This document shows, one piece after another, positions 110 through 60,264 of a stretch of DNA of 64,000 nt. The notes under the pieces are model-generated. The model did not search any database and had not been told where the DNA came from. It saw only the letters and a program-made list of their open reading frames with translations. The stretch is from a virus. The stretch lies in IMG/VR virus record IMGVR_UViG_3300020473_000017; one strand, written 5' to 3'. Position numbers and translations under genes: made by a program. Positions within the stretch are counted from its first letter, which is position 1. Each line of letters opens with the position of its first letter.

Positions 110-112
110 GTC

Positions 113-22700: not shown

Positions 22701-25700
22701 AATGGATCTGTTGTACGAGGATACGTCTTATTAGAACCATCATTATCCATCTCACAAGTAAATGTGAGTGAATTAGGTGCAATTAAAATTCTGTCTCCAT
22801 CAACAAATGGGTGACTTGCAATGGTAAGAACCATTTCACCTGTTTGTGGATTATAATCAGCACCAGTTGGTTGGAATTGATATGTGCTTAAACCTTGGAA
22901 TGTATGTGTAGTAGTATTAGTTGGAGTAGTACCATTAAGTGCATTAATAGTAATATCATTTCCATTAACAGCAGTTACAGGAGTTTCAGTAAGACTTGAA
23001 ACAAAACGCTCTACTGCTTCTTCTGAAATGAACTTGTTATTAGTATTAATTAAATTAGCAGCATCCTGAGTTAGGTTAGGTACAGTACCATATGTTGCTC
23101 TATCAAGAGTAATAGTTTCATACTGTTGAGGATGAGTAGTATGTGGATGTCTTAGAATTGGTAGGTTACGAATTACCTTAGCAGCATATCCCTTAGCATT
23201 ATTGAATGCAGTTACATACTTACTCTGATTACTTGTAGTTACATCTTTAAGGAAGTAATTAGCAGCATCATATACTCTGTCATTACCACCCCACTTAAGG
23301 TTGTGATAAAGTGACTTCTTAAGGAAGTCGGAAATATCATCAGTACATGCTGTATTACCAGTAGGAACACTATATCCAGTATCAGCAACCATCTTCTCAA
23401 CAGATAGTTCTGCAATCATTTCAGCATTAGCAGCAAGTAAATCTGCAGCATCTGCTTGCTTATTATTCTCTGGGAAACTATTTGGAGTTCTATATGGTTT
23501 TCTTAAATCAGTGAAAGTACCATCAGTTCCTGTATATGTTGTACCTTCTGCTTCATTTTTACCAGAACTATTAACGCCAAGATCAAGAGTGAAAGTTCTA
23601 TGATCTACAATATCCTTAATAGGCCATGTGCTGTTAAGACTAAATCCATTCGCGAATGCAGCGACACCTTTAATTTCTACACCAGCAGAAGTACCAACAT
23701 TAACTGTAACTGTTCCAGCTGCATCTACTGCTGTAATTGCTAAAGTAGCACCGTATGCAGGGTCAGTTGATCTTGGATAAGTATGGGATGTAGCATGGTT
23801 GTCTCTAGAACATGTAAAGCTTAAAGAACCATTAGCAATGACTAATGTGTCAGAAGTAGTAAAGGTATGAGCACCTATTGATAATACTAGGTCTCCTGAT
23901 ACAGGGTCGTATGTTGCACCTGTTACATTCTTTTGAACACTACCAGCAGTTATTGTAATAGCATTACTTGCTGTACCACCATCATAAATGTGAGCATGAT
24001 TCTTATATCCTCTATAAAGGTTATGTCCTTGATTAACTTTAATAGTGGCAACATCATCACTTACAGCCCATGAAGTAATTGGATGGTCAAACTCCATCCC
24101 CAATGCACTAAATGTAGTAGGTCCAATTACAAGAGTACTATTTCTAGTAGAAGACTTCTCATAATGAGACTTAACATATCCGTATGCTTCTTGTGCAATA
24201 AATTCTTGGTTAGCTCTGATAGATTCAGCACCATCCCTAAAGCGAGCAGTCTGAGAGATCTTGACAAATCCATAAGGAGAGTTCCTTAGAGATGCAAGAA
24301 CATAGTTATTAGTAGAAATAACTGACTGGTTACCAGTTGGATTAAGTTGTGCATCAAATACACTAATAGCAGATCTTACAACAAATTGTAAGGCATAACC
24401 ATCAGCACGTTCAATACGATGCGTAATGTACTTACGTCCATTAAGATCTTCAACGTTATCTAAGACACTAACTGTAGATCCACTAGCAGTTGCAGTATTA
24501 GTTGTTGACTGAATATTTGCTGTCCTAAGTACAAAGGTAACAGTTAAGTTGGAACTATTGTATCTACCATAACCCATACCCAATTCAGTGTTACCAGGTA
24601 AGGATGGAGTACCAGATCCAAGATCAAACTGGTCAATAAGATATGTTTTACTTAATGCTTCAGATCCAGCTCCATCAAAGTTAAACTTAAGACCACATTC
24701 ACCAAGTGACTGCCAGTTAGAGAATAATGCAGTAGTTAAAGTATTATCTACGTTAGCAATAGTAACTGTGACTTCGCCACTTGATAAAGACCAAGATGGG
24801 TTAGTACCTGCACCCCAGTTAATAGCAGAACTTTGGAAACCATATAAGAAAACTTCCTGACCAACTTCATAGTCATGGTAAGAAGTACCTGCTAAAGTGA
24901 AAGTTGGACCATTATATGTCTGTTGTGTAGCTAATGTTGTGTCCAGAGTTGCGATTGATAATAATCTTGTCGCATCTTCAAATCTTTGATATCCTAAACC
25001 TGTACCTGTAAGATCTAAAGTTGTAGGAGCATCATTACCATTAGCATCCTTATTAAGAGCGTTAGCAGCAGTAGCAGCAAATCTTACCCAATCATTATTT
25101 TCTTTGTAGATATAATAAGTTGTACCATCTAGAAGACCACCAATCGCACCCATCTTACTAGCACGATATACAACACCATCTCCAGTTGCATACTGGTGAG
25201 TGAAGATTCTCATATTATTCGATTCTGGCATAATACTACCAGAAGTGAATAGATGGAGACTAGTATCTGGAGATACCGCAGTTATATCCTTTCTACCTGT
25301 AGTTGAAGTAAGTGTAGTAGCATTTAACCAAGTATCAAATAGTTCAATAGTATCAGCATCAACAAACCTTACATAATATACTGTACCATCAATAAGACCA
25401 CCAAGAGCATTAGTGTTCTCATCTTTCTGATAATAAACCTGATCACCACTCTTAAAGCTATGCCCAGTAATTGTTATTCTATCAGTGGTTAGATTAACCT
25501 TAGTAGAATCAGCTGCAAATGCAGTTGTTTCTCTTTCAGAATTAACTGTATGCTGATAAATCTGGTTAGAGATAGTCTCTAATTCAGGTCTTAATGATTC
25601 AGCATCAACAACGTCAAAGCGATCTGATACACTTGGGTTAGTGATATCAGTGATAATATTATTTGCTACAGCATCATAGAATATTTTCTCAGCGTCCTGG

Positions 25701-45852: not shown

Positions 45853-45860
45853 TATTTATA
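45853..45860 (-). promoter_or_regulatory. T4-type late promoter TATAAATA
   Basis: Exact consensus overlapping the gp7 stop, 21 nt before the gp8 ATG. Confidence 0.8.
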
Positions 45861-48800
45861 ATGATCTCAGACGAACTTCTGGAAGAAGTGAGACGTTTCC
45901 GCTTGTGGTGCGCGAGAATGGATATTCAACTGTAAATGTATCTACAGCTGTGACAGTAACTTTATATGCTCCGTCAAATCCATCGCCTGAAGTATGATCT
46001 AGATATATGCTCATACCTGTTGTCAGGTTATGAGCTGCAGAAGTAGTAATTGTAGATACAGTTCCTGAAGAACTATATGTTCCTGTCTGAATGGATATTG
46101 CGAAAGCTGTAGTTCCACCGTATCCTCTACCACCTGTTGCAACTGTAAGAGTGTTAGCAGACGTGTTCTTAGAACCATATAGAATCCTTTCACATGTCCA
46201 TCCTATTACATTACCAGAACTATCTGTTGCAGGATTATAATAAGGAATTAGGACTTCTCCCTCATCAGGGAAACCTATATTCTGACTAACATCAAAGTAT
46301 ATATTCTTACAAGTTAAAGTTGTATCTACAGCAGAAATACTAGAAGCCAAATATGTATTTGCTAATGCAAGAGTATTAGAGATAATTCTATCTCTTGACT
46401 TCCTCTCTATATGTACAGGATGTACAGCAAATACAGTTGGTGGTGTTAAGTATCCAGCACCACCATTTAGATTAACAATAGAGGTTACCGTACCACTTCC
46501 AGATTGAACAACTGTCTCTGCAGAAGCACCTGTTCCACTACCACCTTGGAAATAAAGAATTGGTGGAACTTCATAATTACTACCTCCATCTAATATACTA
46601 ACTGTATCAACCTTTCCATTATTAATTGTACATTCAAAATTAGCAACGGTTGGTCGTAATCCAGTATATTCATAAGTGTCTACAGAAGTTGCACTTGATA
46701 CTGTTGCTAATAGACGATCTTCACCTTCACTCTTAACCATGACTCTATCGTTAGGATCAAGAGAATTGAAAGTATTAGAAATGAATATATCTTCTGCAGA
46801 TCCAACATAAATGTAAAGACTACATGTAGATCCTGCTCTTGGAGCTTCAAAGAATTCAATAATTGATCCGTTTAATTGATATGCAACTCCAGGTTCCTGG
46901 AATACACCATTAAGGAAGATCATTACGTTATTAGCTGGTTCAACAGAACTGTTATCACTCTGTAAGGAGAATGGTTCACTATTCAACGTCATAACAAAAG
47001 TCTTTCTAGCATTATCAAAGAAAGGAGCTATGGTATCAAGTAATTGTAATTTACCAAAGTAGAATCCATAGAAGTCCATACCACTGGTAGGTGCTTCAGT
47101 AAAGGATATTGTACTTCCTGTATATGTGTATGCTTCTGTGCTACCTTTAATCTGAAGAATACTATTCAAGAATATTAAGAAGTTATCAGATGCAGGTAAT
47201 GCATAATTACTACCAGCAACTTTAGCACTGAATATCTTATCAGTTCCATCAAATGCCACAGTACCAACTTCAACTTGGAATTCTGGGTTTGATGAAGATG
47301 TTCTGGTGATTCCAGTTAGATTACCTGCTCCACCAGAAGTGGTTCCAACTGCTTGAGTAACAATTGCAGTTAAAGTAGTAATTGCAGATGCAACATCAGT
47401 ACAATCATTAGTATCATAAGTTGCATTACCACTATCATTAGTAATAGTTAAATCTTTATACTGTGCTCCTTCTGTGTAATGGTTTGTTGTAACTGAGATG
47501 TTACGCATTACCTCGCGAGCAATATCTCTAGCATGATTGAATACTAATACAGTCTGATCTTCTTCACCTTGTAAGTGAACTGTACCAACATAGTATTTCG
47601 CTGCATCGTAAGTAGCATCATTACCACCAAACTCAATATTATTAGCAACAGCCTCAGTAATTAACTTAGTATCACGAATACACTTAACAAAACTAGGAAC
47701 AACGAATGTGCTATTAGTAGCCATCATTCTTCCATAAGCAGTTGTTGCAATAAAGTCTAAGTTTTCACGTATCAATCTACCAGCATCAGCAAGTTTGTCA
47801 TATTCATATCCACCAGATTGTACAAGAGACCTTGTGACACTATTTGCACTGGCACTTACGAACTGATGTGCAAAACCAGTCTTAACAGACCCAGGTGTTG
47901 CATTAACAAACGTATGTGTATGATCACCACCAGACTTAATAGCATTAGTAGTTGCTTGAATGAAGGTATGAGTATAATTACCTCCTGCTATGACGGCTGT
48001 AGCACCTGCTGATACAAAACTATGAGCATACTGATGAGTAATAGCAGAATCTCTATTGTTAGTATTAATCGTGATAACGCCAGTTTGCTTCTTGACGGTA
48101 GCGCGAGTAATAGAGTTACTAACTGCGGAGATAAACGTATGAGCTGTCGTATTAGTTGACGGTACACTGTTTAGAACCTGTATATCGAAAGTGTTGGTTG
48201 TGACATTGTATATCTTAACCCATTGACCGCTAATTGGATCTGTAGAACGAGGATAGTTATGGAATGAAGTATGGAAGTCCTCATTACATGTAAATCTAAA
48301 GGTATCATCATCAATCTTAATTTCATCACCAGCAATGAATCCATGATTATTAATAGTTATAGTGAATACACCTGTAAGAGGATCATAAGCAGCAACAGTA
48401 GGTGTTAACTTACCTTCGGGTACAAATGTATGAGCGTGCTGTCCATTAGGTCCAGCAACACCAACATTGATATCAAACGTATCAGTTGTAACATTTGATA
48501 CAAGCATCCATTCATCATAATTAGGATCTTCTAAAGTTGGATAACTCTTAACTGTTGCATTACTATCCTTATTACATGTGAACTTCAATGCACCTTGATT
48601 GACCTTAATATAATCACCATTAGAGAAACCATGTCCAGCAACTGTTGATGTTAGTACACCTGTACTAGGTACATATACTGCAGCAGTTACAGCATGAGAT
48701 GTATATCCAACACTCTTAATAGGAATTGGTCTATCATATGCCCAATCCTTTTTCTTCTTCAATCCATTACTAACAGCACTATCAAAGGTATGTACTGTTA

Positions 48801-51800
48801 CGTTAGTAGAAGGAATAGAATCTAATACCTGAACCTTAAAGGTTGTATCATCAGCATCCCAAATAGTTAACCATCTACCACTAGCAGGATCAGTTGCTCT
48901 AGGATAAGCATGTGTGCCTCCACCTTGCGTACAAGTGAATACAATAGCACTATCATCAAATTTAACTTGATCACCGTTCACAAAGGCAGCTGCACCCCCT
49001 CCATGAGTAACAGTCATAATACCTGTAGCAGGATCATAATCTGCATCTGTTGGGGTATATGAAATAGTATCAGTTCTAGGATAAGACTGGTTGCTAACAC
49101 CACCATTATCACAACTCATTACAATACCACCATCTGCTAATTTGATGGTATCTCCTTTTCTTTGAACACAATTATCTGAAGCAGAAACAAATGTGTGTGC
49201 TTGACCTGTTGCTCCAGTTGCAACATAGAAATTCAATTGTATTGTATCATTTGTTACAGCAAGTACTTGTAACCATGATCTATAGGCAGGATCCGTTACT
49301 CTTGGATAACTATGATTTCCAGCACCAGCAGTACATGTGAATGTTAATGATTCTTTAGCGATTTGAACATAATCACCTTTATTGATAGTATGACCTTTAA
49401 TTGTTAATGTTGCTACACCTGTAGCAGGATCATAAGCAATATCAGTAGGAGTGAATGTATCATATCCACGGAACTTATGCCCACCAACAGTTAGATCAAG
49501 ATCTCCATTAGCAAGGTTAAGAGCAGCACCTGTTGGTTGATAATTTACAATAGGTGATGTTCCAACATTAACTGTGATTGTTGTTCCAGTTGTAGCAGTG
49601 ATATATTGATTAGTCTTAGCAGCTGGATCTGTTACTCTTGGATAGTTGTGTAAAGTAGCACCCAAACTAGTTAGATTTCCACTAGCAAGAGTACCATCAT
49701 TCTCCATATCACATCTAAACATCAATGAGTTAACATCAATGTTAATGCTATTTCCAACCTCAAGACTATGAGATCCAATAGTTAATTGAAGATCTCCAGT
49801 TGTTGCAGTATAGGTAGCTGCCGTTGGAGTAAATGCAACTTCAGGTGATGCACCAACATCAACGGTAAATGTGTCTGAAGTAACAGACTCGACTCCAATT
49901 ACTGCCTTGGAAGATCTATCACCTGCAGCTGGATATGAATGTCTGGAGAAGTCATCATCCATTGAGCATGTGAATGTCAATGCGTCATCATCAATACTAA
50001 CAAAGCTAGTTGCATAAAGAATGCCATCTGCCAATCCAGAAACGAATGTATGAGTAGTGGTATTAGTACAAGGAGTATCATCCAAACATTGAATATCAAA
50101 TGTATCTGGATTTACTGCTCTGATTGTAATCCACTTACCGCTAATTGGATCTGTTGAACGTGGATAAGCAGTCTGTCCACCACTACCATGAGTACAACTA
50201 AAGGTTATAGCACCATCCTTAAGTTTTACTTTATCTCCTGCTTTAAATCCATGATTATTTACTTCTATTGTAACAATACCAGTGGTTGTATTGAATGATG
50301 CACCAGTTGCAGTATGAGATGTAGCAGCAGTCAATCCATGGTTCTCAACACTCATTGACAAAGCACCTGTAGATGCATTGAATGTAGCTGAGGTCGGTGT
50401 CATTGCCTTCTCTACTGCCTGTCCAATATTAACTTTGAAATTATTTGTAGATACTTCAAATACATTGAGCCAGTTACCTGCAGCAGGATCAGTAGATCTT
50501 GGATATGTGTGATTTGTAGCATATCCATCACGAGAGCACTTAAAGGTTAAACCATCAGCAGCAAACTGAACAAAATCACCATTAGAAAGACCATGAGCAG
50601 TAGCCCAGACTTCCATTATACCAGTAGTAGCATCATAATCACAGTATGATGGTTGATACTGATAAGTTGCTAGTGAATCAAATGTATGTGTAGTAGTATT
50701 TGTAGCAGCAGTACCATTTAATGCATTAACAGTAAACGTAGTAGAAGATATAGCATCAACTGGGACATTCTTACCAGAAATAGGATCTGAAGAACGAGGA
50801 TATGAATGAACACCGCCACCCTGCGTACAAGTGAAGTTCAATGAGTTATTTGAGAACTTAACTGTAGATGTGGCAATGCTTAAACCAGAAGCAACAGCAG
50901 ATACGAATGAATGAGCATCAGTGTTTGTAGAAGGAATTGTATCCAGTACAGTTACATCAAATGTGTTAGTTGTTATGTTTGATACTTCTAACCATCTATC
51001 ACTAGCATAGTCAGTATTACGTGGATAATCCTTTTGTGCAGCAGTACCAGAAGCACCACCAAACGCACAACTTAATTTAAGTGAACCATCAGCAAATTTA
51101 ACCTGATCACCTGCCTTCAATCCATGTGCCACTACAGTAACTGTCATAATACCTGTAGTTGGATTATAATCAGCATCAGTTACAGTTGTAGTTGTAGGAG
51201 CAGTTAAAGTATGCTCTCCAACAGTTAATTCTAGTACACCTGTACTAGGAGTGTATGATGCGGTACTAGGTACATATGAATTAGTTAATGGTTTTCCAAT
51301 TGGACTGATTCCTAAGATATCGTTGTCTGTATATCCGTTACCTGGGTTGTTTAATACTACATTCTTAACACCACCATCAACAACAACTATATCACCAGTA
51401 GCACCAACACCTGTTCCAATCTTATTGAATAATGGAATATTTGCATATGTTCCATCTGCATATCCTGTACCAGCAGTTAACCCATCAGAAGTGTCTCTAA
51501 CAGGACTTAAATTAGTATTAACCTGTACAGTAATGGTAGTAGCAGTTTCTGCTGTAATTGCCAAGGTAGCACCAAATGCTTCATCAGATGGTCTTGGATA
51601 AGCATGTGTACTAGCGTGATTATCAGCAGCACAAGTAAACTTAAGAGAACTATCAGCAATCTGAATAGTATCACTAGTCGTATAACTATGAGATCCAATA
51701 GTTAATTCTAAGAGACCTGTAGCAGGAGTGTATGTAGCATTTGTTACATTCTTCTGTGTGTTACTATCACTTACCACAGTTACAGCATTGGTTGCTGTAC

Positions 51801-54800
51801 CACCAACATAGGTATGAGCAGCACTACCAGACATACCAGTATCTAAAGTCTTAAGTTCATCACCAATCTGATCTAATTGGAAGCTAGAAGTATATGATGC
51901 ACGATCATAGTACATTACCAAAGCACTAGAACCTACTTTAGGTGCAGTAGAGAATGTTATAACATCACTAGCAAAGGTATAGTTATTTGGATTCTGAACA
52001 ATACCATCAATTATAACTAAGAACTGTGATTTAACTGAGGTCTTAGAAATCTTAGTAGTAATTAATGTATTATCAACTCTTGTTGTGAACTGAGTATTAA
52101 CCCCATCAATACCTACTGTAAATTTATTAATAGCAGCAGTAGATCCAACATTAACAGTAAATGTATCATTAGTAGTTGCTGTAATATCTAATATCTTTCC
52201 ACCATGTCCTATTGGATCTGTTGATCTTGGATATGTGTGGTTAGTTGCATTGTTATCCATTAGACAAGTTAATGTCAATGCATCATCAGCAATAGAGATC
52301 TTATTATTAGTATTCAACCCATGTCCAGCACTATGAATCACTAAATTACCATCTGCAGGAGTATATACAACATTTGTTGGGTTAAAGAAACTTCCGTTAT
52401 TTGCTACAATACCATCTGTATTACAAGAAACAAATGTATGTGTACCTACGCTAAGTGAGGATAGTACAACTGTACTACCTCCAAGAGAAGATTTCAAAGA
52501 TATTGTATTAGCATCAATAACATCAACGTAATATACGGTTCCTGTTGTTAATCCACCAATATCACCTCTAAAGGTAACAGTTTGATTCTCAACCAATCCA
52601 TGATTAGTTAATGTAATTCTATTATTACTTAAGTCAACTACACTAGAAGATGCTCCATCAAAGCTAATATCTCTAGATGTAATATCATCAACCTTATATG
52701 AGACACAAGTTAAGATTTTCTGAATATCTAACAACTGTCTACCGAATATTTGAACCTCTGTGGGAACAGCTGCTGTATAATCTGGTTTACCTAGAGCAAA
52801 GTTATTAATGGTTGCCAACTTACCAGTATTCTTAGCAGATGGTTTTGGTGTTACATATGTAAGACCATTAAAGGTTGCACTAATACTATTACTACCAGGA
52901 ACCCACCAATCTGTTGAACTAGTGGTAAGTAAATCAAGAGTAGGTTTACCTCTATAAGATTTCTTAGATGCTTGTGATAATATTTGTGTACCAACAACTT
53001 TAAATCCTGCAGGGTGAGCAGCAAATTTAAGTGGATTCTTCCAATCTCTAATATTAATAGGTGAAGATATCTCATATGAGAATTCTTGGAACCTATTACT
53101 ATCATATAATCTCTGTTCGTTAATATCTAAGAAACCAGTAGTACGTTCCCATTGAGAAGAAGATATACTAATTGGAGAAACTTCAAATACAGCATCTGCT
53201 CTATCAAATGCATGAATCGAACCAAATGATGAAGATTCTTCACCAAATATAGGTTCACCAACTTTAAACTCACCTTCACTAATTTCTACACTAACAACAC
53301 GTCCTGCTGGATCCCAATTCTTAACATATCCAAATGCAGTATATGATGCTGTAGATGCACCCTGATAAACTCTTTCTCCAACTAAGAAAGTTGCAGGTCT
53401 CATATATGCAGTAATAACATCACCAAGATCAGTAGTATCTAATGTGAAGGTTGTTAATCCATTAGCATCTCCAACTGGAGCAGAAGTAAATGTAATTGTT
53501 GTTGGAGTATTAGCAATTGCATTTGCCTCAGATGTTGCTAATTTAACTTGATTATTTGCCAATCCATTTGAACCATTAGCAGCAACAACATAATATGTTG
53601 TATTAATTGCCAATGGAGCTGGGAAAGTACCAACTACCTCATTTAAGGTTACTGCAGTACCTGTTGGCATCTTTGTATTATATGGGAAGTTTAAAGTACT
53701 ATTAGACATTAATGCAACCCAATTATGAGTTACTCTTGCATTTACGACTGGAGCAGATAAGAATCCTCTACCTCCATTCCTAACCTCTACCGATTGTATA
53801 ACTTCATTCTCAACAATCGCTTCTAATTGATAAAGTGACCCACTTCCACCAGTAAGAACAATTGTTGGTTGTGATACAAAATTCTGACCGCCATTAGTAA
53901 CATCAAGGTAATCAATAACTTGAGTTCTTGTTAATTGAAGATTATAGGTTGTATTTAACTCTGGTTTTAGAGTTCTATCATGACTATAGTTAAATGTAAT
54001 ATTATCTCCACCAATCTTTAATATCTTACCTAAATCAGAAGATTTAAGTAATAAAGAAGCACCTTTTCCTGTTTTCTGTGTAATATTAACTACAGGAGCA
54101 TTCTGATATAATGTTCCTCCATCTTCAATATTAATAGAAGAAACACCTTCATTTACAATACTTGAATTAAACTTAGCGTTGATTCCACTACCACCACTAA
54201 CATCTACATTAGGTGCTGATAGATAACCAGATCCAGTGTTAGTTACTGTAATAGCATCAATAGATGCATTTAACACACAATTGGTAATTGCTGGATCAAG
54301 ATGTGTCAGTTTATCAACTGTCACAGTAGCATCATGAGTAACATCAGTACCACCCATTGATGCACCAGAAATTGTAATAACATCACCTAGTGCATATGTA
54401 CTACCACCATCAGTAACAGTAATACTTTCAATAGTTCCTGCACCATTAACAATTACTGTAAACTCAACATTAGTTCCTCCAGTAGGAGCAACACTCTTTT
54501 GAGCAACACCAGTATATGTTCCAGTTGTATAATTGGTACTAGACTGTGTAGTAATTGATACAGTGTTTACTAGTCCATATGTGGGATCATCAAGATCAAT
54601 AGTAGGAGCAGCTCTGTAATTAGATCCTGCTGCAATAATACTAACAGATTCTAATTTACCAACATTTGGACCTGAGCTGGGAATAACGGCCTGGACGTTA
54701 GCATGTATTCCACCTACAGTTGTAACCTTAGCTTCAGCATCAGAACTATAAACCTTACCTCTAGCATTGTTAGATGCCCATGGAGTATACATGATCCACC

Positions 54801-57800
54801 CTCTAGTTGCTGCACTAAAGTTACCAGCTCCATCTTTTAGGTTATTTCGCAGAGGTTGAATTCTCAATATGGAAGTTGTTGGATCCCAATTAATAACTTT
54901 ACCTCTAGCAGTTTGAGCACCTAGAACTGGTTCTGATATAACAATTTCATCTTTAGCAAACGAACCACTACCTAATACTTCAGTTAGAGTTAAATCTACA
55001 AAATCTGGTAAAGTTACATATGCTACTGGAGCACCTGCAGGATTATAACCAGATCCCATGTTAGCAATAGTAACACCAGATACTGAACCAGAAATAGTAG
55101 CAACTGCGGTTGCACCAGATCCAGATCTAGTGGATCCAGTCAATTTTGGAAGAGATGAGTAGTTCCTTCCTGAATCACCAATAGAAATTTTTCCAATACC
55201 GCCTGTTGGGTATATTGAAGTTGTAACATAATTAATGCCACTTGTATACCCACTTTCGGGTTCTTTTCCAACAATATAGGTAAAATTAAGATCAGTTACA
55301 TCTTTTACAATATTTGTGCCAGATAAAGGCTCATTCATTACTGTAAGGTAACTTCCAGCAATAGTTCCTTGAATATCGAAATAATAGAAGATTCCAGGAA
55401 GATCTGTCATCAATATAGTGATAGAAGTCTGTTGACCCGTTTGTGCATTGCTTGTTTCTGCAGATATGTTCTTATAAGTGAAAATATCGGTATTTGCGGG
55501 ATCTAACGTAAATGCAAGTGTTTTTCCAACATTACTTGCATCAGAAGTGTCAAATGTGTAAGAATGCCCGTCAATCAACTCTAACTTAGGTTCTTGGACA
55601 TAAACATCAGCAGAAGTGACTGTAGCGGCAGCTGTAGACCCATGATTGCGTTTTACAGTGAATCTACGAAGAGTTTCCGTTCTAATTACTTCATAATCAG
55701 TTTTATCGTATGTAGATGGAGAAACTCCTGAAATATTAACAGTATCGCCTATTGCAACTTGATGAGCAAGACTTGTATGACATACTGCCTCTCTTAAAGT
55801 CTCAGTTAATGTAATACTAAAACTAGACCCTCCACCGTTACCTAAGTTCTGATCACTAGCAGAAATAGTATCTCCAACATTATATGCAGTACCAAACTCT
55901 GTAATTGTAACTGTAGTAATTGCACCACCAGAAATGACTATAGTTGCCTTTGCATTCCTACCACTATTATTAGTAGTCAATGGAACGTCAGTATAAGTTC
56001 CATTTTCATATCCAGAACCACCAGTGATAGATGACCATCCACCTTGGACTAAATTACCGTCTGTACGAGTTCTTACGTAAGTCCAAGACAATGTACCATC
56101 AGATGCTGTTCCTGATAAGTGAGTAGGAGCATTTCCTGCACCAGAATCAGATGTACCAGCTGCAGCAGCCTTATAAACTCTATTTGCAACATAAACAAGA
56201 TCATTTTTAGCATATGCAGTACTATTAGTCCAAGGACCAATTAACTTCATACTTACTAGGTCAAAATACTCAAAATGGTACTTATTATTGATAATTTTAG
56301 TATTAAGAGATCTTGTAGATGAATTATCAGCAATAGTGATAGTAAGTTGATCATCACCAACCAAATAATGTTTATCTGAAGTTGTTAAGGTTGCAGTAAC
56401 AACATCATCGTCATCTACAGCATAATTGAGAGAAGAAACCGTTGTACCAGTAACTGCAGAGATTGCTGCACTAACACCTTCTCCTCCAGAAGTACTATTA
56501 TCGAATAATAGTCGATCATTGACCTTATAACCAGTACCACCACCTTCTACTAGATATTGATCGATATTAGCAGAAGAATATTGGTTAGTAGAACTAACTG
56601 TTAACGATTCTGCAATTCCACCACGGATTACTGGATAATAACTAAAATATCCAATACCATCTTCAACATATTGAAGAATCTCTCCAGTTTCAAGTGTAAT
56701 GAGAGTTGTAGTGTCTTCTAGTGCCAAAACAAAGTCAACTTTGTTATCAAGTTGCTTTCTCTTAGTGGTTATGTTATCAGTTCCGATATATGGTGCTTTA
56801 TACCTAATTGAGTCTTCTGTAAAGTTTTTCTGAAGACCATTTCCGTCCCAGTTGACTTCATCCGCTTCTGAGTAGAAATTTGGTCCTACAAAATACGGAA
56901 ATTTCGGATTTCCGCTGATTCCATCAATTGTACAGAAATATGCATAAACTCCATCTGGAAATTCTGGAGTTACGCAGAATCTACCGTTATATTGGTCTAA
57001 ACCACCTAATCCCTCTACATATTCATAATCTTCAATAAAGGTGCCCATAGGGTCAGCAAGACCACTTAGAAGAGCATCCCTACTTGTCTTCAATCGGTAG
57101 CTTGTACCAGGTTGACTATATGCATTGTATGGATTCTGGTTTTCGGGATCCTCATACCCATAAGGTCCATATATGGGGTGTCCATCATAAGCCCATCCAA
57201 TAATAGGTGAGTGTTTAGTTGGATTTAACTCTTTCCATGGTGGATTATTAGGATCTGTGTCAGGTTCAATATTATCAGCTAAGTAATATCTAAGATTCTT
57301 AGGATTGTACAAATATCCATACTCTCCACCATATATTCCACTATTCTCACCTTCCATTACTGCACCACTAGATTGGTCAGTCACTTTCCTTGCATTGAAG
57401 GATACTTGACCAACTTCTGTTGCAGTTGCTGATTCGTTAAAGGTTAATTCTGTTAATTTGGTTGTAAATGACGCACCAGTTCCTGGATATACAATACTGA
57501 TGTTTGTATTACCTACAGTATATCCAATTCCTTTGTTAGTTACTACAATACCAGTAACAATGTTCTGTGATAGGTCTACTTGAGCAAATGCAGTAGCACC
57601 AACTCCATCTCCAGTAATAACAACGTCTGGAGCACCAAAATACCCACTACCACCAAAAGTTACGATAGCACTTTCTATCTTTCCATTCAAAATTGATGGA
57701 TAGGCAACAGCACCACTACCAGAGATTAATTTGATGACTGGTTCGTAAGTATACTGTGATCCAGCAGCAGTAATAGTAATATCCTTAAGAGGTCCACGTA

Positions 57801-60264
57801 CAACAGCAGTTGCAGTTGCTCCTGCACCATTACCACCAGTAATTATAATTGTTGGTAATCCAGCAGCCTGTGTATATCCACTTCCAGAGTTGGTGACTGT
57901 GATTCCAGTAACCTTACCCTCAGTTATCTGTGCAACAGCAGTTGCCTGTGTACTACTGGATGCACCACCTCCACTAATAGAGACACTTGGTTCACTTGTG
58001 TACCCGCCACCCCCATTTGTAACGTTAATAGAAATAACTCTACCGTCTACCTCTGCAGTTGCAGATGCAGCAAGACCTAAGTAAGTCCATTCAATAGTTC
58101 CTAGAGTTACATTACCAGATGTATGTGTTGGATACAATGTATTGCTACTTTGCCCTACATTCTTAGATTGATATCTCTTTCCACCCCATTTAACAACTAT
58201 TCCACTAGCATAGTTGGTTGCAAGCTTATAATCTGGTTCAAATTCAACTGTAGGTGGGTTTTGAATATCATATCCATCTCCACCTGAATTTTTAGTGATT
58301 GATTTTAATCCACCATACTTTCTAGTAGTACTTCCCTTATATGAGAATAAAGGAACGCCATTAGCACCAATTCCAACTTGACCTATAGGAGTTGGAGTCT
58401 TTGTACTCTTAGTAGATGTCTGTAATGGTATTCTCTTAAGATATCTCTGGTTTCCTGGATCTATATCAGCTGCTGCGAAAGGTCCAATCTTATGTGATGG
58501 TATACCTGTACTAGCTACAATACAATCTGTTGATGACTTGTAGGTATTACTGGTATCTGCAATAAACTTGGAAACTATAGCATTATAGGAATAGTCAGAT
58601 GATCCATATGCAAATTCTCTAGCAATAAAGAATTCCTTACCTGCTAATATCGGAGCAGCAGGAGTTGACGAGAGAACAAATTCAAAAATGTAATTATCAA
58701 CAATACCAATCACATCATGTTGGTTGTTGTAGATATCTTCCTCAGCATTAAGGATTCTAACCTTATCATCTCTTCTTAATTGATGCTTTTCCTTTGTTGT
58801 AACAGTTACCCTAACAGCACCATTAGGATCGGGTGTTCCTAGGGTTGCTGTAACCCCTCTAAGTGCTCTTCTGACGTTATATACAAAAGAACTCCATATT
58901 GGGTCAAGACTATCGAAACCAGGTGCTAGAGGGGTCGTAACCTTACTTTGTGGAAGGTAATACTTACCACCTTTTGATATATTAACACCTCTGGTTCCAC
59001 CATAGACCTTTAATTGGATTTCAGACCCATCTACGTTGCTTTTACCGTAAATCTTGTATGCAGCAAAAACTTCTTGCCCTGCATCATGTGCTACATTGAG
59101 TGTACTCTCTCTAGCACGATTACAACCTAAAAATTGGTTAACCGTTTTGTCAGTATAGCTAATAATTTCATCTTCAATTCTAAATCGACCATTTTTCTCT
59201 GGCCAACCTAATGTAGAATCAACAGTAATGATATCATCACTTAAACTACCAGTTAAATCCGCAGCAAGAATTGATTTGTAAGGAGTTACAAAAGTTCCAA
59301 GTGCATTATTGGTATCTACGTCAACTTCAAAGATTGAACCAGTCTGAGTGAATACTTCAACAACACCTTTAACGTATATACGTGCTGCATTGATACTTGG
59401 ATCATTTGCATCAGCTTCTTGGTATAAAACTTCCCCAACAAGTTCAGTTGGATCTCCTGTTATAGCAACACAGCGAATTACTTCCCTAGAAGTGTAATAT
59501 GCGTCCGATGGTTTGAAAATTCGGTCTCTTGGATAAGAAATTTCTGATTCTACGCCAAAAATCGTTCTCAAAACAAATTGGAACGATCTTGTAGACCCTT
59601 TAGAAGCATAAAAGTCCTTAATTCGCTTAATTACGGTACTTTCAGTAAGTCCAGAGTAAAAATTCTTCGGATAAGTGGATAAAAGCAGTTCTTTGAACTG
59701 TCCCAACATGAAAAGTGGGAACAGGTTGTTCAAATTAACAACTTTTGACCCAAGAACGTGTTCTGTGGGAGTTGTTGATGAGAAAATGAAGTCTCCTGCC
59801 TCTCCAATTGCTTTTACAGCATCAAAACCCCTTGAACAGGTATTAAAAAGGGTTGCACCCTTACTTTGGTAGTAAATTATCTCATCATCTATTAAAATTA
59901 GTCCCTCACTGGGAAAATCACGAGTTGAAGTAACGTCAACAGTAGTAGAAGAGGTAGTTACCGTCGAAATTGTTGTTGTTTCAGTAACTAGGTTACCATA
60001 ATTGTCAAGATTATAATAATCAGCCCAATTATTGATTATATCTAAGCAATATCCCTTTAATTCTTGTGATTGATAGTATGCTTTAACGAACTCTATGAAT
60101 GTAGGAAAGCTATCCTGTATAAAACTGGCAAATTGGCCAGTAATACTATCAGATATCTGCGATCTAGATTCAGGACTTACTTCCGATGGAACTGGTGTTG
60201 TCGTGACCGTCGTAGTCGGAGTAGTCCACGACCCTACTTTCCAGGATGAATTCGATTGAGCCAT
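45856..60264 (-). CDS. gp7: Baseplate wedge initiator gp7, giant multidomain form, 4802 aa
   Basis: Position between gp6 and gp8. FIEFVKAYY, IKDFYASKGS..SF..V.R.IFG, DS..FQEFSYEI and HPAGFKV.G. Also carries a YHYH-like domain and nested repeats. Confidence 0.85.
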   Translation of the reverse strand: MAQSNSSWKVGSWTTPTTTVTTTPVPSEVSPESRSQISDSITGQFASFIQDSFPTFIEFVKAYYQSQELKGYCLDIINNWADYYNLDNYGNLVTETTTISTVTTSSTTVDVTSTRDFPSEGLILIDDEIIYYQSKGATLFNTCSRGFDAVKAIGEAGDFIFSSTTPTEHVLGSKVVNLNNLFPLFMLGQFKELLLSTYPKNFYSGLTESTVIKRIKDFYASKGSTRSFQFVLRTIFGVESEISYPRDRIFKPSDAYYTSREVIRCVAITGDPTELVGEVLYQEADANDPSINAARIYVKGVVEVFTQTGSIFEVDVDTNNALGTFVTPYKSILAADLTGSLSDDIITVDSTLGWPEKNGRFRIEDEIISYTDKTVNQFLGCNRARESTLNVAHDAGQEVFAAYKIYGKSNVDGSEIQLKVYGGTRGVNISKGGKYYLPQSKVTTPLAPGFDSLDPIWSSFVYNVRRALRGVTATLGTPDPNGAVRVTVTTKEKHQLRRDDKVRILNAEEDIYNNQHDVIGIVDNYIFEFVLSSTPAAPILAGKEFFIAREFAYGSSDYSYNAIVSKFIADTSNTYKSSTDCIVASTGIPSHKIGPFAAADIDPGNQRYLKRIPLQTSTKSTKTPTPIGQVGIGANGVPLFSYKGSTTRKYGGLKSITKNSGGDGYDIQNPPTVEFEPDYKLATNYASGIVVKWGGKRYQSKNVGQSSNTLYPTHTSGNVTLGTIEWTYLGLAASATAEVDGRVISINVTNGGGGYTSEPSVSISGGGASSSTQATAVAQITEGKVTGITVTNSGSGYTQAAGLPTIIITGGNGAGATATAVVRGPLKDITITAAGSQYTYEPVIKLISGSGAVAYPSILNGKIESAIVTFGGSGYFGAPDVVITGDGVGATAFAQVDLSQNIVTGIVVTNKGIGYTVGNTNISIVYPGTGASFTTKLTELTFNESATATEVGQVSFNARKVTDQSSGAVMEGENSGIYGGEYGYLYNPKNLRYYLADNIEPDTDPNNPPWKELNPTKHSPIIGWAYDGHPIYGPYGYEDPENQNPYNAYSQPGTSYRLKTSRDALLSGLADPMGTFIEDYEYVEGLGGLDQYNGRFCVTPEFPDGVYAYFCTIDGISGNPKFPYFVGPNFYSEADEVNWDGNGLQKNFTEDSIRYKAPYIGTDNITTKRKQLDNKVDFVLALEDTTTLITLETGEILQYVEDGIGYFSYYPVIRGGIAESLTVSSTNQYSSANIDQYLVEGGGTGYKVNDRLLFDNSTSGGEGVSAAISAVTGTTVSSLNYAVDDDDVVTATLTTSDKHYLVGDDQLTITIADNSSTRSLNTKIINNKYHFEYFDLVSMKLIGPWTNSTAYAKNDLVYVANRVYKAAAAGTSDSGAGNAPTHLSGTASDGTLSWTYVRTRTDGNLVQGGWSSITGGSGYENGTYTDVPLTTNNSGRNAKATIVISGGAITTVTITEFGTAYNVGDTISASDQNLGNGGGSSFSITLTETLREAVCHTSLAHQVAIGDTVNISGVSPSTYDKTDYEVIRTETLRRFTVKRNHGSTAAATVTSADVYVQEPKLELIDGHSYTFDTSDASNVGKTLAFTLDPANTDIFTYKNISAETSNAQTGQQTSITILMTDLPGIFYYFDIQGTIAGSYLTVMNEPLSGTNIVKDVTDLNFTYIVGKEPESGYTSGINYVTTSIYPTGGIGKISIGDSGRNYSSLPKLTGSTRSGSGATAVATISGSVSGVTIANMGSGYNPAGAPVAYVTLPDFVDLTLTEVLGSGSFAKDEIVISEPVLGAQTARGKVINWDPTTSILRIQPLRNNLKDGAGNFSAATRGWIMYTPWASNNARGKVYSSDAEAKVTTVGGIHANVQAVIPSSGPNVGKLESVSIIAAGSNYRAAPTIDLDDPTYGLVNTVSITTQSSTNYTTGTYTGVAQKSVAPTGGTNVEFTVIVNGAGTIESITVTDGGSTYALGDVITISGASMGGTDVTHDATVTVDKLTHLDPAITNCVLNASIDAITVTNTGSGYLSAPNVDVSGGSGINAKFNSSIVNEGVSSINIEDGGTLYQNAPVVNITQKTGKGASLLLKSSDLGKILKIGGDNITFNYSHDRTLKPELNTTYNLQLTRTQVIDYLDVTNGGQNFVSQPTIVLTGGSGSLYQLEAIVENEVIQSVEVRNGGRGFLSAPVVNARVTHNWVALMSNSTLNFPYNTKMPTGTAVTLNEVVGTFPAPLAINTTYYVVAANGSNGLANNQVKLATSEANAIANTPTTITFTSAPVGDANGLTTFTLDTTDLGDVITAYMRPATFLVGERVYQGASTASYTAFGYVKNWDPAGRVVSVEISEGEFKVGEPIFGEESSSFGSIHAFDRADAVFEVSPISISSSQWERTTGFLDINEQRLYDSNRFQEFSYEISSPINIRDWKNPLKFAAHPAGFKVVGTQILSQASKKSYRGKPTLDLLTTSSTDWWVPGSNSISATFNGLTYVTPKPSAKNTGKLATINNFALGKPDYTAAVPTEVQIFGRQLLDIQKILTCVSYKVDDITSRDISFDGASSSVVDLSNNRITLTNHGLVENQTVTFRGDIGGLTTGTVYYVDVIDANTISLKSSLGGSTVVLSSLSVGTHTFVSCNTDGIVANNGSFFNPTNVVYTPADGNLVIHSAGHGLNTNNKISIADDALTLTCLMDNNATNHTYPRSTDPIGHGGKILDITATTNDTFTVNVGSTAAINKFTVGIDGVNTQFTTRVDNTLITTKISKTSVKSQFLVIIDGIVQNPNNYTFASDVITFSTAPKVGSSALVMYYDRASYTSSFQLDQIGDELKTLDTGMSGSAAHTYVGGTATNAVTVVSDSNTQKNVTNATYTPATGLLELTIGSHSYTTSDTIQIADSSLKFTCAADNHASTHAYPRPSDEAFGATLAITAETATTITVQVNTNLSPVRDTSDGLTAGTGYADGTYANIPLFNKIGTGVGATGDIVVVDGGVKNVVLNNPGNGYTDNDILGISPIGKPLTNSYVPSTASYTPSTGVLELTVGEHTLTAPTTTTVTDADYNPTTGIMTVTVVAHGLKAGDQVKFADGSLKLSCAFGGASGTAAQKDYPRNTDYASDRWLEVSNITTNTFDVTVLDTIPSTNTDAHSFVSAVASGLSIATSTVKFSNNSLNFTCTQGGGVHSYPRSSDPISGKNVPVDAISSTTFTVNALNGTAATNTTTHTFDSLATYQYQPSYCDYDATTGIMEVWATAHGLSNGDFVQFAADGLTFKCSRDGYATNHTYPRSTDPAAGNWLNVFEVSTNNFKVNIGQAVEKAMTPTSATFNASTGALSMSVENHGLTAATSHTATGASFNTTTGIVTIEVNNHGFKAGDKVKLKDGAITFSCTHGSGGQTAYPRSTDPISGKWITIRAVNPDTFDIQCLDDTPCTNTTTHTFVSGLADGILYATSFVSIDDDALTFTCSMDDDFSRHSYPAAGDRSSKAVIGVESVTSDTFTVDVGASPEVAFTPTAATYTATTGDLQLTIGSHSLEVGNSINIDVNSLMFRCDMENDGTLASGNLTSLGATLHNYPRVTDPAAKTNQYITATTGTTITVNVGTSPIVNYQPTGAALNLANGDLDLTVGGHKFRGYDTFTPTDIAYDPATGVATLTIKGHTINKGDYVQIAKESLTFTCTAGAGNHSYPRVTDPAYRSWLQVLAVTNDTIQLNFYVATGATGQAHTFVSASDNCVQRKGDTIKLADGGIVMSCDNGGVSNQSYPRTDTISYTPTDADYDPATGIMTVTHGGGAAAFVNGDQVKFDDSAIVFTCTQGGGTHAYPRATDPASGRWLTIWDADDTTFKVQVLDSIPSTNVTVHTFDSAVSNGLKKKKDWAYDRPIPIKSVGYTSHAVTAAVYVPSTGVLTSTVAGHGFSNGDYIKVNQGALKFTCNKDSNATVKSYPTLEDPNYDEWMLVSNVTTDTFDINVGVAGPNGQHAHTFVPEGKLTPTVAAYDPLTGVFTITINNHGFIAGDEIKIDDDTFRFTCNEDFHTSFHNYPRSTDPISGQWVKIYNVTTNTFDIQVLNSVPSTNTTAHTFISAVSNSITRATVKKQTGVITINTNNRDSAITHQYAHSFVSAGATAVIAGGNYTHTFIQATTNAIKSGGDHTHTFVNATPGSVKTGFAHQFVSASANSVTRSLVQSGGYEYDKLADAGRLIRENLDFIATTAYGRMMATNSTFVVPSFVKCIRDTKLITEAVANNIEFGGNDATYDAAKYYVGTVHLQGEEDQTVLVFNHARDIAREVMRNISVTTNHYTEGAQYKDLTITNDSGNATYDTNDCTDVASAITTLTAIVTQAVGTTSGGAGNLTGITRTSSSNPEFQVEVGTVAFDGTDKIFSAKVAGSNYALPASDNFLIFLNSILQIKGSTEAYTYTGSTISFTEAPTSGMDFYGFYFGKLQLLDTIAPFFDNARKTFVMTLNSEPFSLQSDNSSVEPANNVMIFLNGVFQEPGVAYQLNGSIIEFFEAPRAGSTCSLYIYVGSAEDIFISNTFNSLDPNDRVMVKSEGEDRLLATVSSATSVDTYEYTGLRPTVANFECTINNGKVDTVSILDGGSNYEVPPILYFQGGSGTGASAETVVQSGSGTVTSIVNLNGGAGYLTPPTVFAVHPVHIERKSRDRIISNTLALANTYLASSISAVDTTLTCKNIYFDVSQNIGFPDEGEVLIPYYNPATDSSGNVIGWTCERILYGSKNTSANTLTVATGGRGYGGTTAFAISIQTGTYSSSGTVSTITTSAAHNLTTGMSIYLDHTSGDGFDGAYKVTVTAVDTFTVEYPFSRTTSGNVSLLPEVRLRSL
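47810..51282 (-). repeat. Block of 11 nested ~95-aa YPR/HxF beta repeats in gp7; two solitary copies at about 51510-51820 and 52140-52440
   Basis: 11 opening segments, 11 C...YP motifs and 11 HxF closing segments counted in the translation. Confidence 0.88.

What the first reader, a model, noticed from the sequence alone, without database searches (positions are those of the whole stretch)
47810..51282. Recursive 'matryoshka' architecture in gp7: 11 copies of one domain nested up to 7 deep, with branching
Seen in the translation: the repeats are not tandem. Naming each copy by its opening residues, the parse is PSTASY{VTDADY; PSYCDY{PTSATF{ATGASF; PTAATY{PTGAAL{PTDIAY; PTDADY; VTAAVY{PTVAAY}}}}}}. 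Each host copy breaks off mid-motif, a complete guest follows, and the host resumes where it stopped, for example GEHTLTAP[guest]TSTVKFSNNSLNFTC and SYPRT[guest]KDWAY. The deferred last strands then stack up like closing brackets at about 47830-48030: AHSFVSA, THTFIQA, THTFVNA, AHQFVSA. Openings, C..YP motifs and closings each number 11. One copy hosts three guests. Inference: the chain folds as a branched, out-and-back tree of domains on the baseplate, generated by repeated insertion of a self-similar module into its own loops.
Basis: partly seen in the sequence, partly recalled or inferred. Interest (0 to 1): 0.93.

Follow-up and report, generated by a model that had tools for sequence, protein, structure and literature searches.

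The report
Russian-doll barrel domains in cyanophage gp7
A giant baseplate protein of a T4-like marine cyanophage carries 11 copies of one small beta-barrel domain inserted into each other like Russian dolls (five levels deep here), a rare way to build a protein that is known from cyanobacterial RNA polymerase but that I found no description of in virus particles.

Summary
Its tree needs correcting.

- **Location.** Residues 2999-4152 of the 4802-aa gp7 homologue (window 47809-51270, minus strand).
- **Content.** 11 copies of a ~100-aa domain with five ordered elements, A to E.
- **Copy types.** Six copies are contiguous. Five are split by whole guest copies. Four deferred E elements stack at 4080-4152.
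- **My parse.**
  - H1{G2} closes locally.
  - C3{H4{G5; C6{H7{G8; G9; G10, G11}}}} is closed by the four stacked E elements.
  - Depth is 5, not 7.

Support:
- Rejoined hosts align end to end with the family profile.
- The same bracket grammar holds in a second protein of this window and in more than 100 homologues, two of which parse cleanly to depth 7.
- gp7 orthologues have the same host domain with or without its guest.
- Covariation favours last-in-first-out pairing.
- AlphaFold2 models place single barrels across C3 plus the last E, and across H4 plus the third E.

The fold resembles the endosialidase beta-barrel and the E1 FCCH domain.

Recursive self-insertion is already known from cyanobacterial RpoC2 SI3, so this is a new variant of a known kind.

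First readers of this scan noted the same pattern on other cyanophage genomes.

The parts
45856..60264 (-). gp7-like baseplate wedge protein, 4802 aa (P0001), lying between gp6-like (60273-62156) and gp8-like (44318-45832) genes
   Evidence: ORF list and translation. PHROG phrog_2885 baseplate wedge subunit E=0; neighbours hit phrog_219 and phrog_438.
50653..51270 (-). H1{G2}. Host H1 is A at aa 2999-3023 (nt 51196-51270) plus B-C-D-E at aa 3133-3204 (nt 50653-50868). It is split at the A/B hairpin by the complete guest G2, aa 3024-3132 (nt 50869-51195). H1 closes locally.
   Evidence: Split profile hits. Rejoined H1 scores 102.7 bits end to end. Covariation favours H1 with its own E. Orthologues have the same host without a guest. 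G2 aligns to the endosialidase barrel, Z 8.6.
50398..50652 (-). C3, aa 3205-3289: elements A-B-C-D with no E. Outermost host of the deep nest.
   Evidence: Rejoined with the last E it scores 116.8 bits. AF2 and VIA range 205/207..1152 equals aa 3199/3201-4146.
49828..50397 (-). H4. A is aa 3290-3318 (nt 50311-50397). Guest G5 is aa 3319-3419 (nt 50008-50310). B-C-D is aa 3420-3479 (nt 49828-50007). E is deferred.
   Evidence: Split hits, profile 1-26 and 22-77. Rejoined score 86.9 bits. VIA range 289..1136 equals aa 3283-4130.
49537..49827 (-). C6, aa 3480-3576: A-B-C-D with E deferred.
   Evidence: 86.8 bits when rejoined with the second stacked E.
48028..49536 (-). H7 with four guests.
- A: aa 3577-3605.
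- G8: aa 3606-3702.
- B and first part of C: aa 3703-3737.
- G9: aa 3738-3838.
- Rest of C: aa 3839-3858.
- G10 (aa 3859-3954) and G11 (aa 3955-4054) in tandem.
- D: aa 4055-4079.
   Evidence: Split hits, profile 1-24, 23-54 and 53-75. Alignment. Rejoined score 41.5 bits end to end. In the AF2 model aa 3846-3857 and 4057-4067 are two long strands flanking G10+G11. G8 and G9 align as single barrels.
47809..48027 (-). Stack of four deferred E elements: aa 4080-4097, 4098-4115, 4116-4131 and 4132-4152. They close H7, C6, H4 and C3 in that order.
   Evidence: E-profile hits. Each element is two short strands at pLDDT 70-84. VIA ranges end in the fourth E (with C3) and the third E (with H4). The pairing of the two inner E elements is inferred from topology only.
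51511..51819 (-). U2, a circularly permuted copy: E at aa 2816-2832, then A-B-C-D at aa 2840-2918.
   Evidence: aa 2809-2924 is a clean whole-module indel against orthologues P0005 and P0006. The re-ordered sequence scores 100.5 bits end to end.
52120..52446 (-). U1: A-B-C-D at aa 2629-2715, preceded by an E-like element at aa 2607-2622. Whether that E belongs to U1 is uncertain.
   Evidence: The E may instead close a shorter related barrel at about aa 2540-2606.
20084..22990 (-). Second protein (ORF 13781-27046, 4421 aa), aa 1353-2321: about 10 copies of the same domain with the same bracket grammar. A mid-chain pair of closings (HxW) follows two open copies.
   Evidence: AF2 of aa 1757-1978 (nt 21113-21778) gives pLDDT 93.1 and pTM 0.79. 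VIA ranges 85..198 and 1..219.

Best explanation
**What it is.** The block is a single polypeptide that folds into 11 copies of a small six-stranded-type beta-barrel of about 100 aa. The fold resembles the phage endosialidase beta-barrel and the E1 FCCH domain. The barrel's two ends lie next to each other.

**How it nests.** Because the ends are adjacent, a whole barrel can sit in a surface loop of another barrel. Guests are seen at four kinds of site: after A, after B or inside C, between C and D, and between D and E.

**The tree in this protein.**
- H1 hosts G2 and closes locally.
- C3 hosts H4.
- H4 hosts G5 and C6.
- C6 hosts H7.
- H7 hosts G8, G9, G10 and G11.
- The chain runs outward through the A-D parts of C3, H4, C6 and H7.
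- It returns by laying one E element on each in reverse order.
- The 950-aa tree therefore starts and ends at the same point of gp7.

**Shown.** The grammar, the rejoined alignments, the gain and loss of modules among orthologues, and the predicted pairing of C3 and H4 with the last two E elements.

**Inferred.**
- The pairing of the two inner E elements.
- That two chain crossings at every junction make a stiff, branched, monomeric appendage on the baseplate that displays leaf barrels.
- That the invariant His/Cys/YPR/Asp/His set is a metal or ligand site which includes the returning strand.
- That the barrels bind host surface glycans, as proposed for the endosialidase barrel (my own recollection, not tested).

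The stated confidence refers to the nested architecture. The functional inferences are much less certain, about 0.3-0.4.
For: 1. **Split profile hits.** Complementary profile coordinates flank complete copies.
2. **Rejoined copies.** All 13 rejoined or re-ordered copies give one end-to-end hit (profile 1-91 or further, most 1-98) to a profile built from 296 contiguous copies, at 41.5-135.6 bits. D-E spacing matches the leaf copies.
3. **Second protein.** The window's second giant protein is balanced as well. Two closings sit mid-chain exactly where two copies are open.
4. **Homologues.**
   - Recurrent balanced strings occur in 120 homologues, for example 'ABCD ABCD ABCD ABCDE DE E E'.
   - P0057 and P0115 parse perfectly to depth 7 with type-matched resumptions.
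   - Last-in-first-out fits number 741, against 516 +/- 15.5 in 200 permutations.
   - Non-E misfits number 46, against 171.
5. **Module gain and loss.**
   - Whole-module indels occur among close orthologues.
   - The H1-orthologous host is uninterrupted in P0105 and P0077 but split by a guest in P0001 and P0056.
6. **Covariation.** Coupling between body columns 38-48 and E columns 86-91 was learned on 673 leaf copies.
   - It favours last-in-first-out over first-in-first-out in 25 of 30 stack clusters, p = 5e-5.
   - In this block the nested pairing ranks 6 of 120.
7. **Invariant residues.** H20, C39, Y50-P51-R52, D55 and H88 are 92-100% conserved in leaf copies and in rejoined hosts alike.
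8. **AF2, two-domain nest.** pLDDT 93.1, pTM 0.79. Single barrels align either to 85..198 or to 1..219 with about 78 residues aligned.
9. **AF2, whole block.** pLDDT 78.7, pTM 0.53.
   - Seven rows span 205-207..1152-1153, which is C3 plus the fourth E: 62-80 residues aligned, rmsd 2.4-3.6, Z 5.0-5.9.
   - One row spans 289..1136, which is H4 plus the third E.
   - The C3 range recurs.
Against: - All structural evidence is predicted, and I could not inspect contacts. The alignment ranges give only the first and last aligned residue.
- No row showed C6 with the second E or H7 with the first E. For those two the covariation score is ambiguous.
- The automated parser is perfect for only 9 of 109 architectures. 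It leaves 339 open copies and 262 unexplained free E elements, which I attribute to undetected short divergent fragments such as H7's own C-end and D. This protein parses fully only by hand.
- The Z scores of 5-8.6 are in a range where fold matches may reflect only a common arrangement.
- Function, rigidity and metal binding have no direct evidence.
Confidence: 0.83

Rival explanations
1. Beads plus a separate rod. C3, H4, C6 and H7 are tandem barrels that simply lack the last element. The four HxF elements form an independent repeat structure, for example a His-ladder beta-structure like the HxH repeats of the T4 long tail fibre tip.
For: The four elements are regular (period 16-21 aa) with GG(N/D)Y linkers. 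Free E elements are common in homologues (462). Counts of A and E do not match exactly in many automatically parsed proteins.
Against: - The number and the type of deferred pieces (CDE, DE or E) mirror the open copies in reverse order across many proteins.
- Closings occur mid-chain where the nest predicts them.
- H88 of E is as invariant as C39 of the body.
- Covariation links E to its assigned body.
- AF2 with VIA places the last two E elements in the C3 and H4 barrels.
- gp7 is a single copy per wedge in T4 (textbook knowledge), so a trimeric rod is unlikely.
Confidence: 0.05
2. Same elements, different bracket assignment. One version pairs E at 3190-3204 with C3 as an E-first permuted unit and lets the last stacked E close H1. 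That makes H1 the root. Another version swaps the two inner E elements.
For: - E-first permuted copies exist in this protein and in orthologues, so E1+C3 is geometrically possible.
- Covariation cannot separate the two inner pairings: C6 scores 1.04 with the first stacked E against 0.40 with the second, and H7 scores -7.21 against 5.27.
Against: - The H1-root version scores -41.3 (rank 61 of 120) against -6.5 (rank 6) for my parse.
- H1's D-E spacing equals that of leaf copies.
- The orthologous uninterrupted H1 carries this same E.
- VIA ranges start at model 205-207, the C3 start, and end in the fourth E. One weak row covers 1..204, which is H1.
- A swap of the inner two E elements would cross chains with linkers of only 2-4 residues.
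Confidence: 0.08
3. Inter-chain strand donation. The stacked E elements complete the open barrels of a neighbouring gp7 or another virion protein (a domain swap), tying baseplate subunits together.
For: Open barrels plus free strands are the ingredients of donor-strand complementation. Nothing here tests oligomers.
Against: Open copies and free strands are balanced within each single chain, level by level, in many proteins of different architecture. That balance is unnecessary for inter-chain donation. The monomer AF2 models close the barrels in cis.
Confidence: 0.04

Closest known systems
SI3 region of cyanobacterial RNA polymerase beta' (RpoC2): recursively nested hybrid-motif domains
   Same: One small beta domain family acts as both host and guest, nested recursively. 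Eight to ten domains in up to six levels are reported, forming a long arch, confirmed by cryo-EM according to PMC13114784 (which cites Shen et al. 2023). It is the same architectural principle, with depth comparable to this block (5) and its homologues (7).
   Different: - Different protein and a cellular enzyme rather than a virion.
- No RNA polymerase chain appeared among the top 50 structural matches, so the fold looks different.
- The phage family also uses circular permutation.
- It uses several insertion sites per domain and a D/E-site nest that leaves runs of stacked single strands.
- It reaches about 30 copies per protein.
Beta-barrel domain of phage endosialidases (phi92 4hiz, K1F endoNF 3gvj; Pfam PF12195)
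   Same: - Best structural match to leaf copies: Z 8.6, rmsd 2.4, 82 aligned; and Z 7.9, rmsd 2.0, 81 aligned, 18-22% identity.
- Two of six copies give weak PF12195 hits, E 0.003.
- It is itself an inserted domain of a phage host-recognition protein.
   Different: - In endosialidases it is a single copy inserted in a different fold (the beta-propeller). It is not nested in itself.
- The invariant H/C/YPR/D/H set of the cyanophage family was not compared with it.
- Foldseek significance is weak, E 6.8e-3.
FCCH domain of ubiquitin-activating enzyme E1 (Pfam PF16190), and FNR-type FAD-binding barrels
   Same: Same barrel topology by structural alignment (4p22_B Z 8.3; 9mc4_A Z 7.8). PF16190 is precomputed on several homologues. 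FCCH is also an inserted domain.
   Different: No functional link. Sequence identity is 10-18%. The match is probably only a common fold.
T4 gp7 baseplate wedge protein
   Same: Gene position between gp6-like and gp8-like genes, and strong N-terminal PHROG match. GenBank records of P-HM1 and P-HM2 label the homologue gp7.
   Different: T4 gp7 is 1032 aa (my own knowledge), and I did not look for this barrel array in it. The block studied here is a lineage-specific elaboration.

Membership tests
Recursively nested homotypic domain insertion (the kind exemplified by cyanobacterial RpoC2 SI3) | Host and guest belong to the same domain family | tested here: met
   All 11 (13 with the upstream copies) rejoined copies match one profile end to end.
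Recursively nested homotypic domain insertion (the kind exemplified by cyanobacterial RpoC2 SI3) | A guest is itself a host, over three or more levels | tested here: met
   C3 > H4 > C6 > H7 > leaf is five levels by hand parse. Homologues reach depth 7 by automatic parse.
Recursively nested homotypic domain insertion (the kind exemplified by cyanobacterial RpoC2 SI3) | Split pieces of a host come together as one folded domain | tested here: met
   Predicted only. AF2 with VIA ranges 1..219 and 85..198, and 205-207..1152 and 289..1136. Not shown for C6 and H7. No experimental structure.
Recursively nested homotypic domain insertion (the kind exemplified by cyanobacterial RpoC2 SI3) | Homology to the RNA polymerase hybrid-motif domain itself | tested here: inconclusive
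   No RNA polymerase chain in the 50 listed rows of three structural searches. A family that is not listed is not excluded.
Endosialidase beta-barrel domain (Pfam PF12195) | Sequence match above Pfam's threshold | tested here: not met
   No match in the whole-protein scan listing families up to E 0.1. Two of six copies reach E 0.003 when scanned alone.
Endosialidase beta-barrel domain (Pfam PF12195) | Same fold over the whole domain | tested here: met
   4hiz_A Z 8.6, rmsd 2.4, 82 aligned. 3gvj_A Z 7.9, rmsd 2.0, 81 aligned. Z is near the level where only a common arrangement may be shared.
Endosialidase beta-barrel domain (Pfam PF12195) | Sialic-acid or glycan binding site | not tested
   Binding residues were not compared. 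No ligand modelling was done.
T4-type gp7 baseplate wedge protein | Synteny gp6-gp7-gp8 and similarity of the N-terminal part | tested here: met
   phrog_2885 E=0 at aa 27-593. Neighbours hit phrog_219 and phrog_438. Pfam Baseplate_wedge scores only 18.4 bits against a cut-off of 27.

The most novel reading that the evidence does not exclude
Marine T4-like cyanophages have evolved a general, grammar-like way of building stiff, branched, single-chain appendages. It uses recursion and circular permutation of one metal- or ligand-binding barrel whose conserved site includes the returning strand. Each level would be locked only when the chain comes back. Host-range variation would proceed by plugging whole barrels in and out of loops. 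This would be an alternative to the trimeric fibre architecture of other phages, and a natural model for inside-out folding of deeply discontinuous domains.
Probability: 0.3. Interest if true: 0.85.

Novelty: new variant of a known kind. Interest (0 to 1): 0.68.

Why it matters
- **Rarity.** A 2026 survey of 48,551 insertion events singles out the six-level RpoC2 SI3 as its extreme case (PMC13114784). Here the same principle appears in virion proteins of very abundant ocean viruses, with up to about 30 copies per protein, depth up to 7 in homologues, several insertion sites and circular permutations.
- **Annotation.** It explains why these giant 'hypothetical structural proteins' defeat domain annotation: Pfam sees nothing in the block. 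It also gives a parser for them.
- **Host recognition.** It shows that modules are gained and lost at fixed loops between orthologues. That is a plausible route of host-range change in cyanophages.
- **Folding.** The outermost barrel cannot close until about 850 further residues have been made, so the block is a natural test case for the folding of discontinuous domains.

Tried and rejected
- **Database searches with little or no yield.**
  - Megablast of the region against phage genomes: no match.
  - Pfam on the whole protein: only YHYH, elsewhere in the protein.
  - PDB sequence-profile search: only a weak U32 C-terminal barrel hit, E 0.28.
  - Foldseek against PDB: nothing at E <= 0.001.
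- **Complex prediction.** C3 (aa 3201-3289) with the last E (aa 4124-4160) in trans gave no verdict. It is not used as evidence either way.
- **Automatic parsing.**
  - Strict stack parsing misreads this protein, because A4, A7, the end of H7's C and H7's D are too divergent for short profiles.
  - Even the tolerant version fully parses only 9 of 109 architectures.
  - Simple A-versus-E counts are noisy.
- **Readings rejected.**
  - G11 nested inside G10.
  - E at 3190-3204 as an E-first strand of C3.
  - An early idea that the upstream E-like elements contradict the bracket model. They turned out to be circularly permuted units.
- **Literature.** Searches for a description of this architecture in cyanophage virion proteins found none. 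That library lacks most subscription journals.


Full report
**Context.**
- The window is a structural-gene region of a T4-like cyanomyovirus.
- The finding lies in a 4802-aa ORF on the minus strand (45856-60264).
- Its N-terminal part matches PHROG baseplate wedge subunit phrog_2885 at E=0. Its neighbours are gp6-like and gp8-like.
- tblastn finds relatives only below 60% identity, in 289 Synechococcus and Prochlorococcus phage records. Some of these are annotated gp7 baseplate wedge initiator.
- The stated coordinates correspond to aa 2995-4152.

**The repeat unit.** It is about 100 aa with five ordered elements:
- A: PTxAxYxPxTGxLxLTxxxHG
- B: GDxVxIxDxxLxFTC
- C: HxYPRxTDPxxGxW
- D: VTxxTFxVxV
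- E: xHTFVSAxxNxIxxGG

The region has 11 openings, 11 YP motifs and 11 HxF closings.

A profile built from the copies gives the classic signature of domain insertion:
- A hit to profile positions 1-27 at 2999-3025, a complete hit at 3028-3107, then positions 24-76 at 3131-3181.
- 3290-3315 with 3416-3471.
- 3577-3600, 3702-3732 and 3838-3860.

The four stacked pieces at 4080-4152 are full E elements of about 16 aa each, homologous to the C-terminal element of every contiguous copy.

**My parse.**
- H1 is 2999-3023 plus 3133-3204. It hosts G2 (3024-3132) and closes with its own E.
- C3 (3205-3289) is A-D only.
- H4 is 3290-3318 plus 3420-3479. It hosts G5 (3319-3419).
- C6 (3480-3576) is A-D only.
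- H7 is 3577-3605, 3703-3737, 3839-3858 and 4055-4079. It hosts G8, G9 and the tandem pair G10 and G11.
- The four E elements then close H7, C6, H4 and C3.
- Depth is therefore five, not seven.
- H1 is not the root, and G10 has its own E, so it does not host G11.

After rejoining, every host aligns without internal gaps to the leaf copies, with leaf-like D-E spacing. Each gives one end-to-end hit to a profile built from 296 non-redundant contiguous copies. Scores are 102.7, 116.8, 86.9, 86.8 and 41.5 bits for H1, C3, H4, C6 and H7. The copies are only 24-52% identical to each other, so the events are old.

**Generality.**
- A second giant protein in the window (ORF 13781-27046) has about ten copies with the same grammar. 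Two A-D copies are followed mid-chain by exactly two closings (HxW variants) before the enclosing host resumes.
- A search of 5.8 billion proteins returned 569 hits. I analysed the best 120.
- Tokenising them with element profiles gives 685 contiguous copies, 614 A-D bodies, and 313, 189 and 105 bodies broken after A, B and C.
- Balanced strings recur, such as 'ABCD ABCD ABCD ABCDE DE E E'.
- P0057 and P0115 parse perfectly to depth 7. The type of each resumed piece (BCD, CD, DE or E) matches what the innermost open copy still lacks.
- Over 109 distinct architectures, last-in-first-out fits number 741 against 516 +/- 15.5 after permuting the continuation pieces. Misfitting non-E pieces number 46 against 171.
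- The parser is far from complete: only 9 architectures parse perfectly, 339 bodies stay open and 262 free E elements are unassigned. I attribute this to short divergent fragments that the profiles miss, as happens for H7 in this very protein.

**Gain and loss of modules.**
- Close orthologues at 74-92% identity keep the block architecture. They differ by clean whole-module indels:
  - P0005 has an extra E+ABCD unit at 4021-4125.
  - P0001, P0003 and P0004 have 2809-2924 (E at 2816 plus the A-D body at 2840-2918), which P0005 and P0006 lack.
- These units carry E first, so they are circular permutations. Re-ordered, they match the profile end to end.
- More distant gp7 proteins keep the outer shell but differ inside.
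- The H1-orthologous domain is uninterrupted in P0105 and P0077 (GNHTLTTNDTIRIANDALIFSC). In P0001 and P0056 it is split at that hairpin by a ~108-aa guest.

**Which E belongs to which body.**
- On 673 contiguous copies, the columns of the B-C loop (38-48) covary with the start of E (86-91).
- Scoring split hosts with these couplings favours the last-in-first-out assignment over the reversed one in 54 of 70 stacks. After clustering similar stacks this is 25 against 4, p = 5e-5.
- In this block the nested assignment ranks 6 of 120.
- H1 strongly prefers its own E, and C3 accepts the last E.
- The H1-root alternative ranks 61.
- The two inner pairings are not resolved.
- H20, C39, Y50-P51-R52, D55 and H88 are 92-100% conserved in leaf and rejoined host copies alike. 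E is therefore an integral part of every copy.

*Two-domain nest.*
- This is 'ABCD ABCDE E' from the second protein (nt 21113-21778), folded with a 60-sequence collinear alignment.
- It gave pLDDT 93.1 and pTM 0.79.
- Single barrels of about 80 residues align either to model 85..198 (the inner copy with the first E) or to 1..219 with only about 78 residues aligned (the outer copy with the last E).
- For example, the E1 FCCH domain matches both ways.

*Whole block.*
- aa 2995-4160 with 43 sequences gave pLDDT 78.7 and pTM 0.53. The stacked E elements are short strand pairs at pLDDT 70-84.
- Leaf copies are recovered at 28..139, 319..424, 606..709 and 738..846.
- Seven rows span 205-207..1152-1153, that is aa 3199/3201-4146/4147: C3 plus the fourth E. 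They have 62-80 residues aligned, rmsd 2.4-3.6 and Z 5.0-5.9.
- One row spans 289..1136, which is H4 plus the third E.
- The C3 range recurs, and a weak row covers 1..204, which is H1.

It remains a prediction, and ranges give only end points.

**Fold.**
- The best matches are the beta-barrel domains of phi92 and K1F endosialidases: Z 8.6 and 7.9, rmsd 2.4 and 2.0, 81-82 residues aligned.
- Next come the E1 FCCH domain and FNR-type FAD-binding barrels.
- Two copies give weak Pfam PF12195 hits.
- The endosialidase barrel and FCCH are inserted domains in their own proteins (my own knowledge of those structures). That fits a fold whose termini are adjacent.
- BFVD holds unannotated predicted fragments of cyanophage gp7 that superpose on the two-domain nest at TM 0.90.

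**How it most likely works (inference).**
- At each D/E-site nest, three chain points meet: the end of the host's D, the start of the guest's A, and the end of the guest's E next to the start of the host's E.
- This explains why consecutive stacked E elements need linkers of only 2-4 residues.
- The chain goes out through four bodies and returns through four strands, so the 950-aa tree begins and ends at one point of gp7.
- Every junction is crossed twice, which should make it stiffer than beads on a string.
- gp7 is a single copy per wedge in T4 (textbook knowledge). Such a design would give a monomer a stiff branched appendage without trimerisation.
- The leaves may be glycan-binding modules.
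- The invariant His/Cys/His(/Asp) set may be a metal site that clamps the returning strand.
- Neither of the last two points was tested.

**Novelty.**
- Recursive self-insertion is not new as a kind. A 2026 survey describes eight to ten hybrid-motif domains in a six-level nest in cyanobacterial RpoC2 SI3 and cites cryo-EM confirmation (PMC13114784).
- I found no description of the phage family or its grammar, within a library that lacks many journals.
- First readers of this scan noted the same pattern in this genome and in other cyanophage genomes. One follow-up described a permuted barrel array in a fibre protein.
- I rate it a new variant of a known kind.

Noticed in passing
window 22991-23530 (-), second giant protein, helical domain just before its barrel block; also P0001 aa 4153-4330 (window 47275-47808): Helical domains flank the barrel blocks and carry motifs such as KCIRDTKLI and GGND.(V/T)YD.A. 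The one in the second protein gives a sub-threshold Pfam Phycobilisome hit (PF00502, E 0.0018, 18.7 bits against a cut-off of 22.2). Many homologues carry precomputed PF00502. The gp7 copy gave no hit.
   Followed up: partly
P0001 aa 979-1114 (window about 56920-57330): A YHYH domain (PF14240, E 4e-25) sits in the N-terminal half of gp7. It is shared by most gp7-type homologues.
   Followed up: no
all barrel copies, e.g. P0001 aa 3974, 3993, 4004-4006, 4009, 4042 in G11: A near-invariant set is spread over elements A, B, C and E in 673 leaf and 299 rejoined host copies: H20, C39, Y50-P51-R52, D55, H88 and F90. This looks like a metal or ligand site. Position 48 is H or K.
   Followed up: partly
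P0001 aa 2540-2622 (window 52399-52645): A shorter related barrel variant (ITLTNHGL ... GTVYYV ... NT.SL ... GTHTFVS) lacks the FTC/YPR part. Its HTF element could belong to it or to the following A-D body U1. A similar unit lies near aa 2170-2260.
   Followed up: no
P0001 aa 2716-2812 (window 51829-52119): An unrelated ~95-aa beta domain sits between U1 and the E of U2. It gives a weak DUF4183 hit, E 0.037. A similar unit occurs near the C-terminus of gp7.
   Followed up: partly
second giant protein aa 1353-1392 and 2149-2321 (window 22871-22990 and 20084-20602): The outermost copy of that block seems to be cut between C and D. It starts with D-E and ends with A[guest]B-C, so the whole array sits at the joined termini of a permuted barrel between two helical domains.
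   Followed up: partly
homologues P0007, P0008, P0018 (not in the window): Some relatives hold 24-31 copies. P0018 repeats a four-barrel nest 'ABCD ABCD ABCD ABCDE DE E E' six times.
   Followed up: partly
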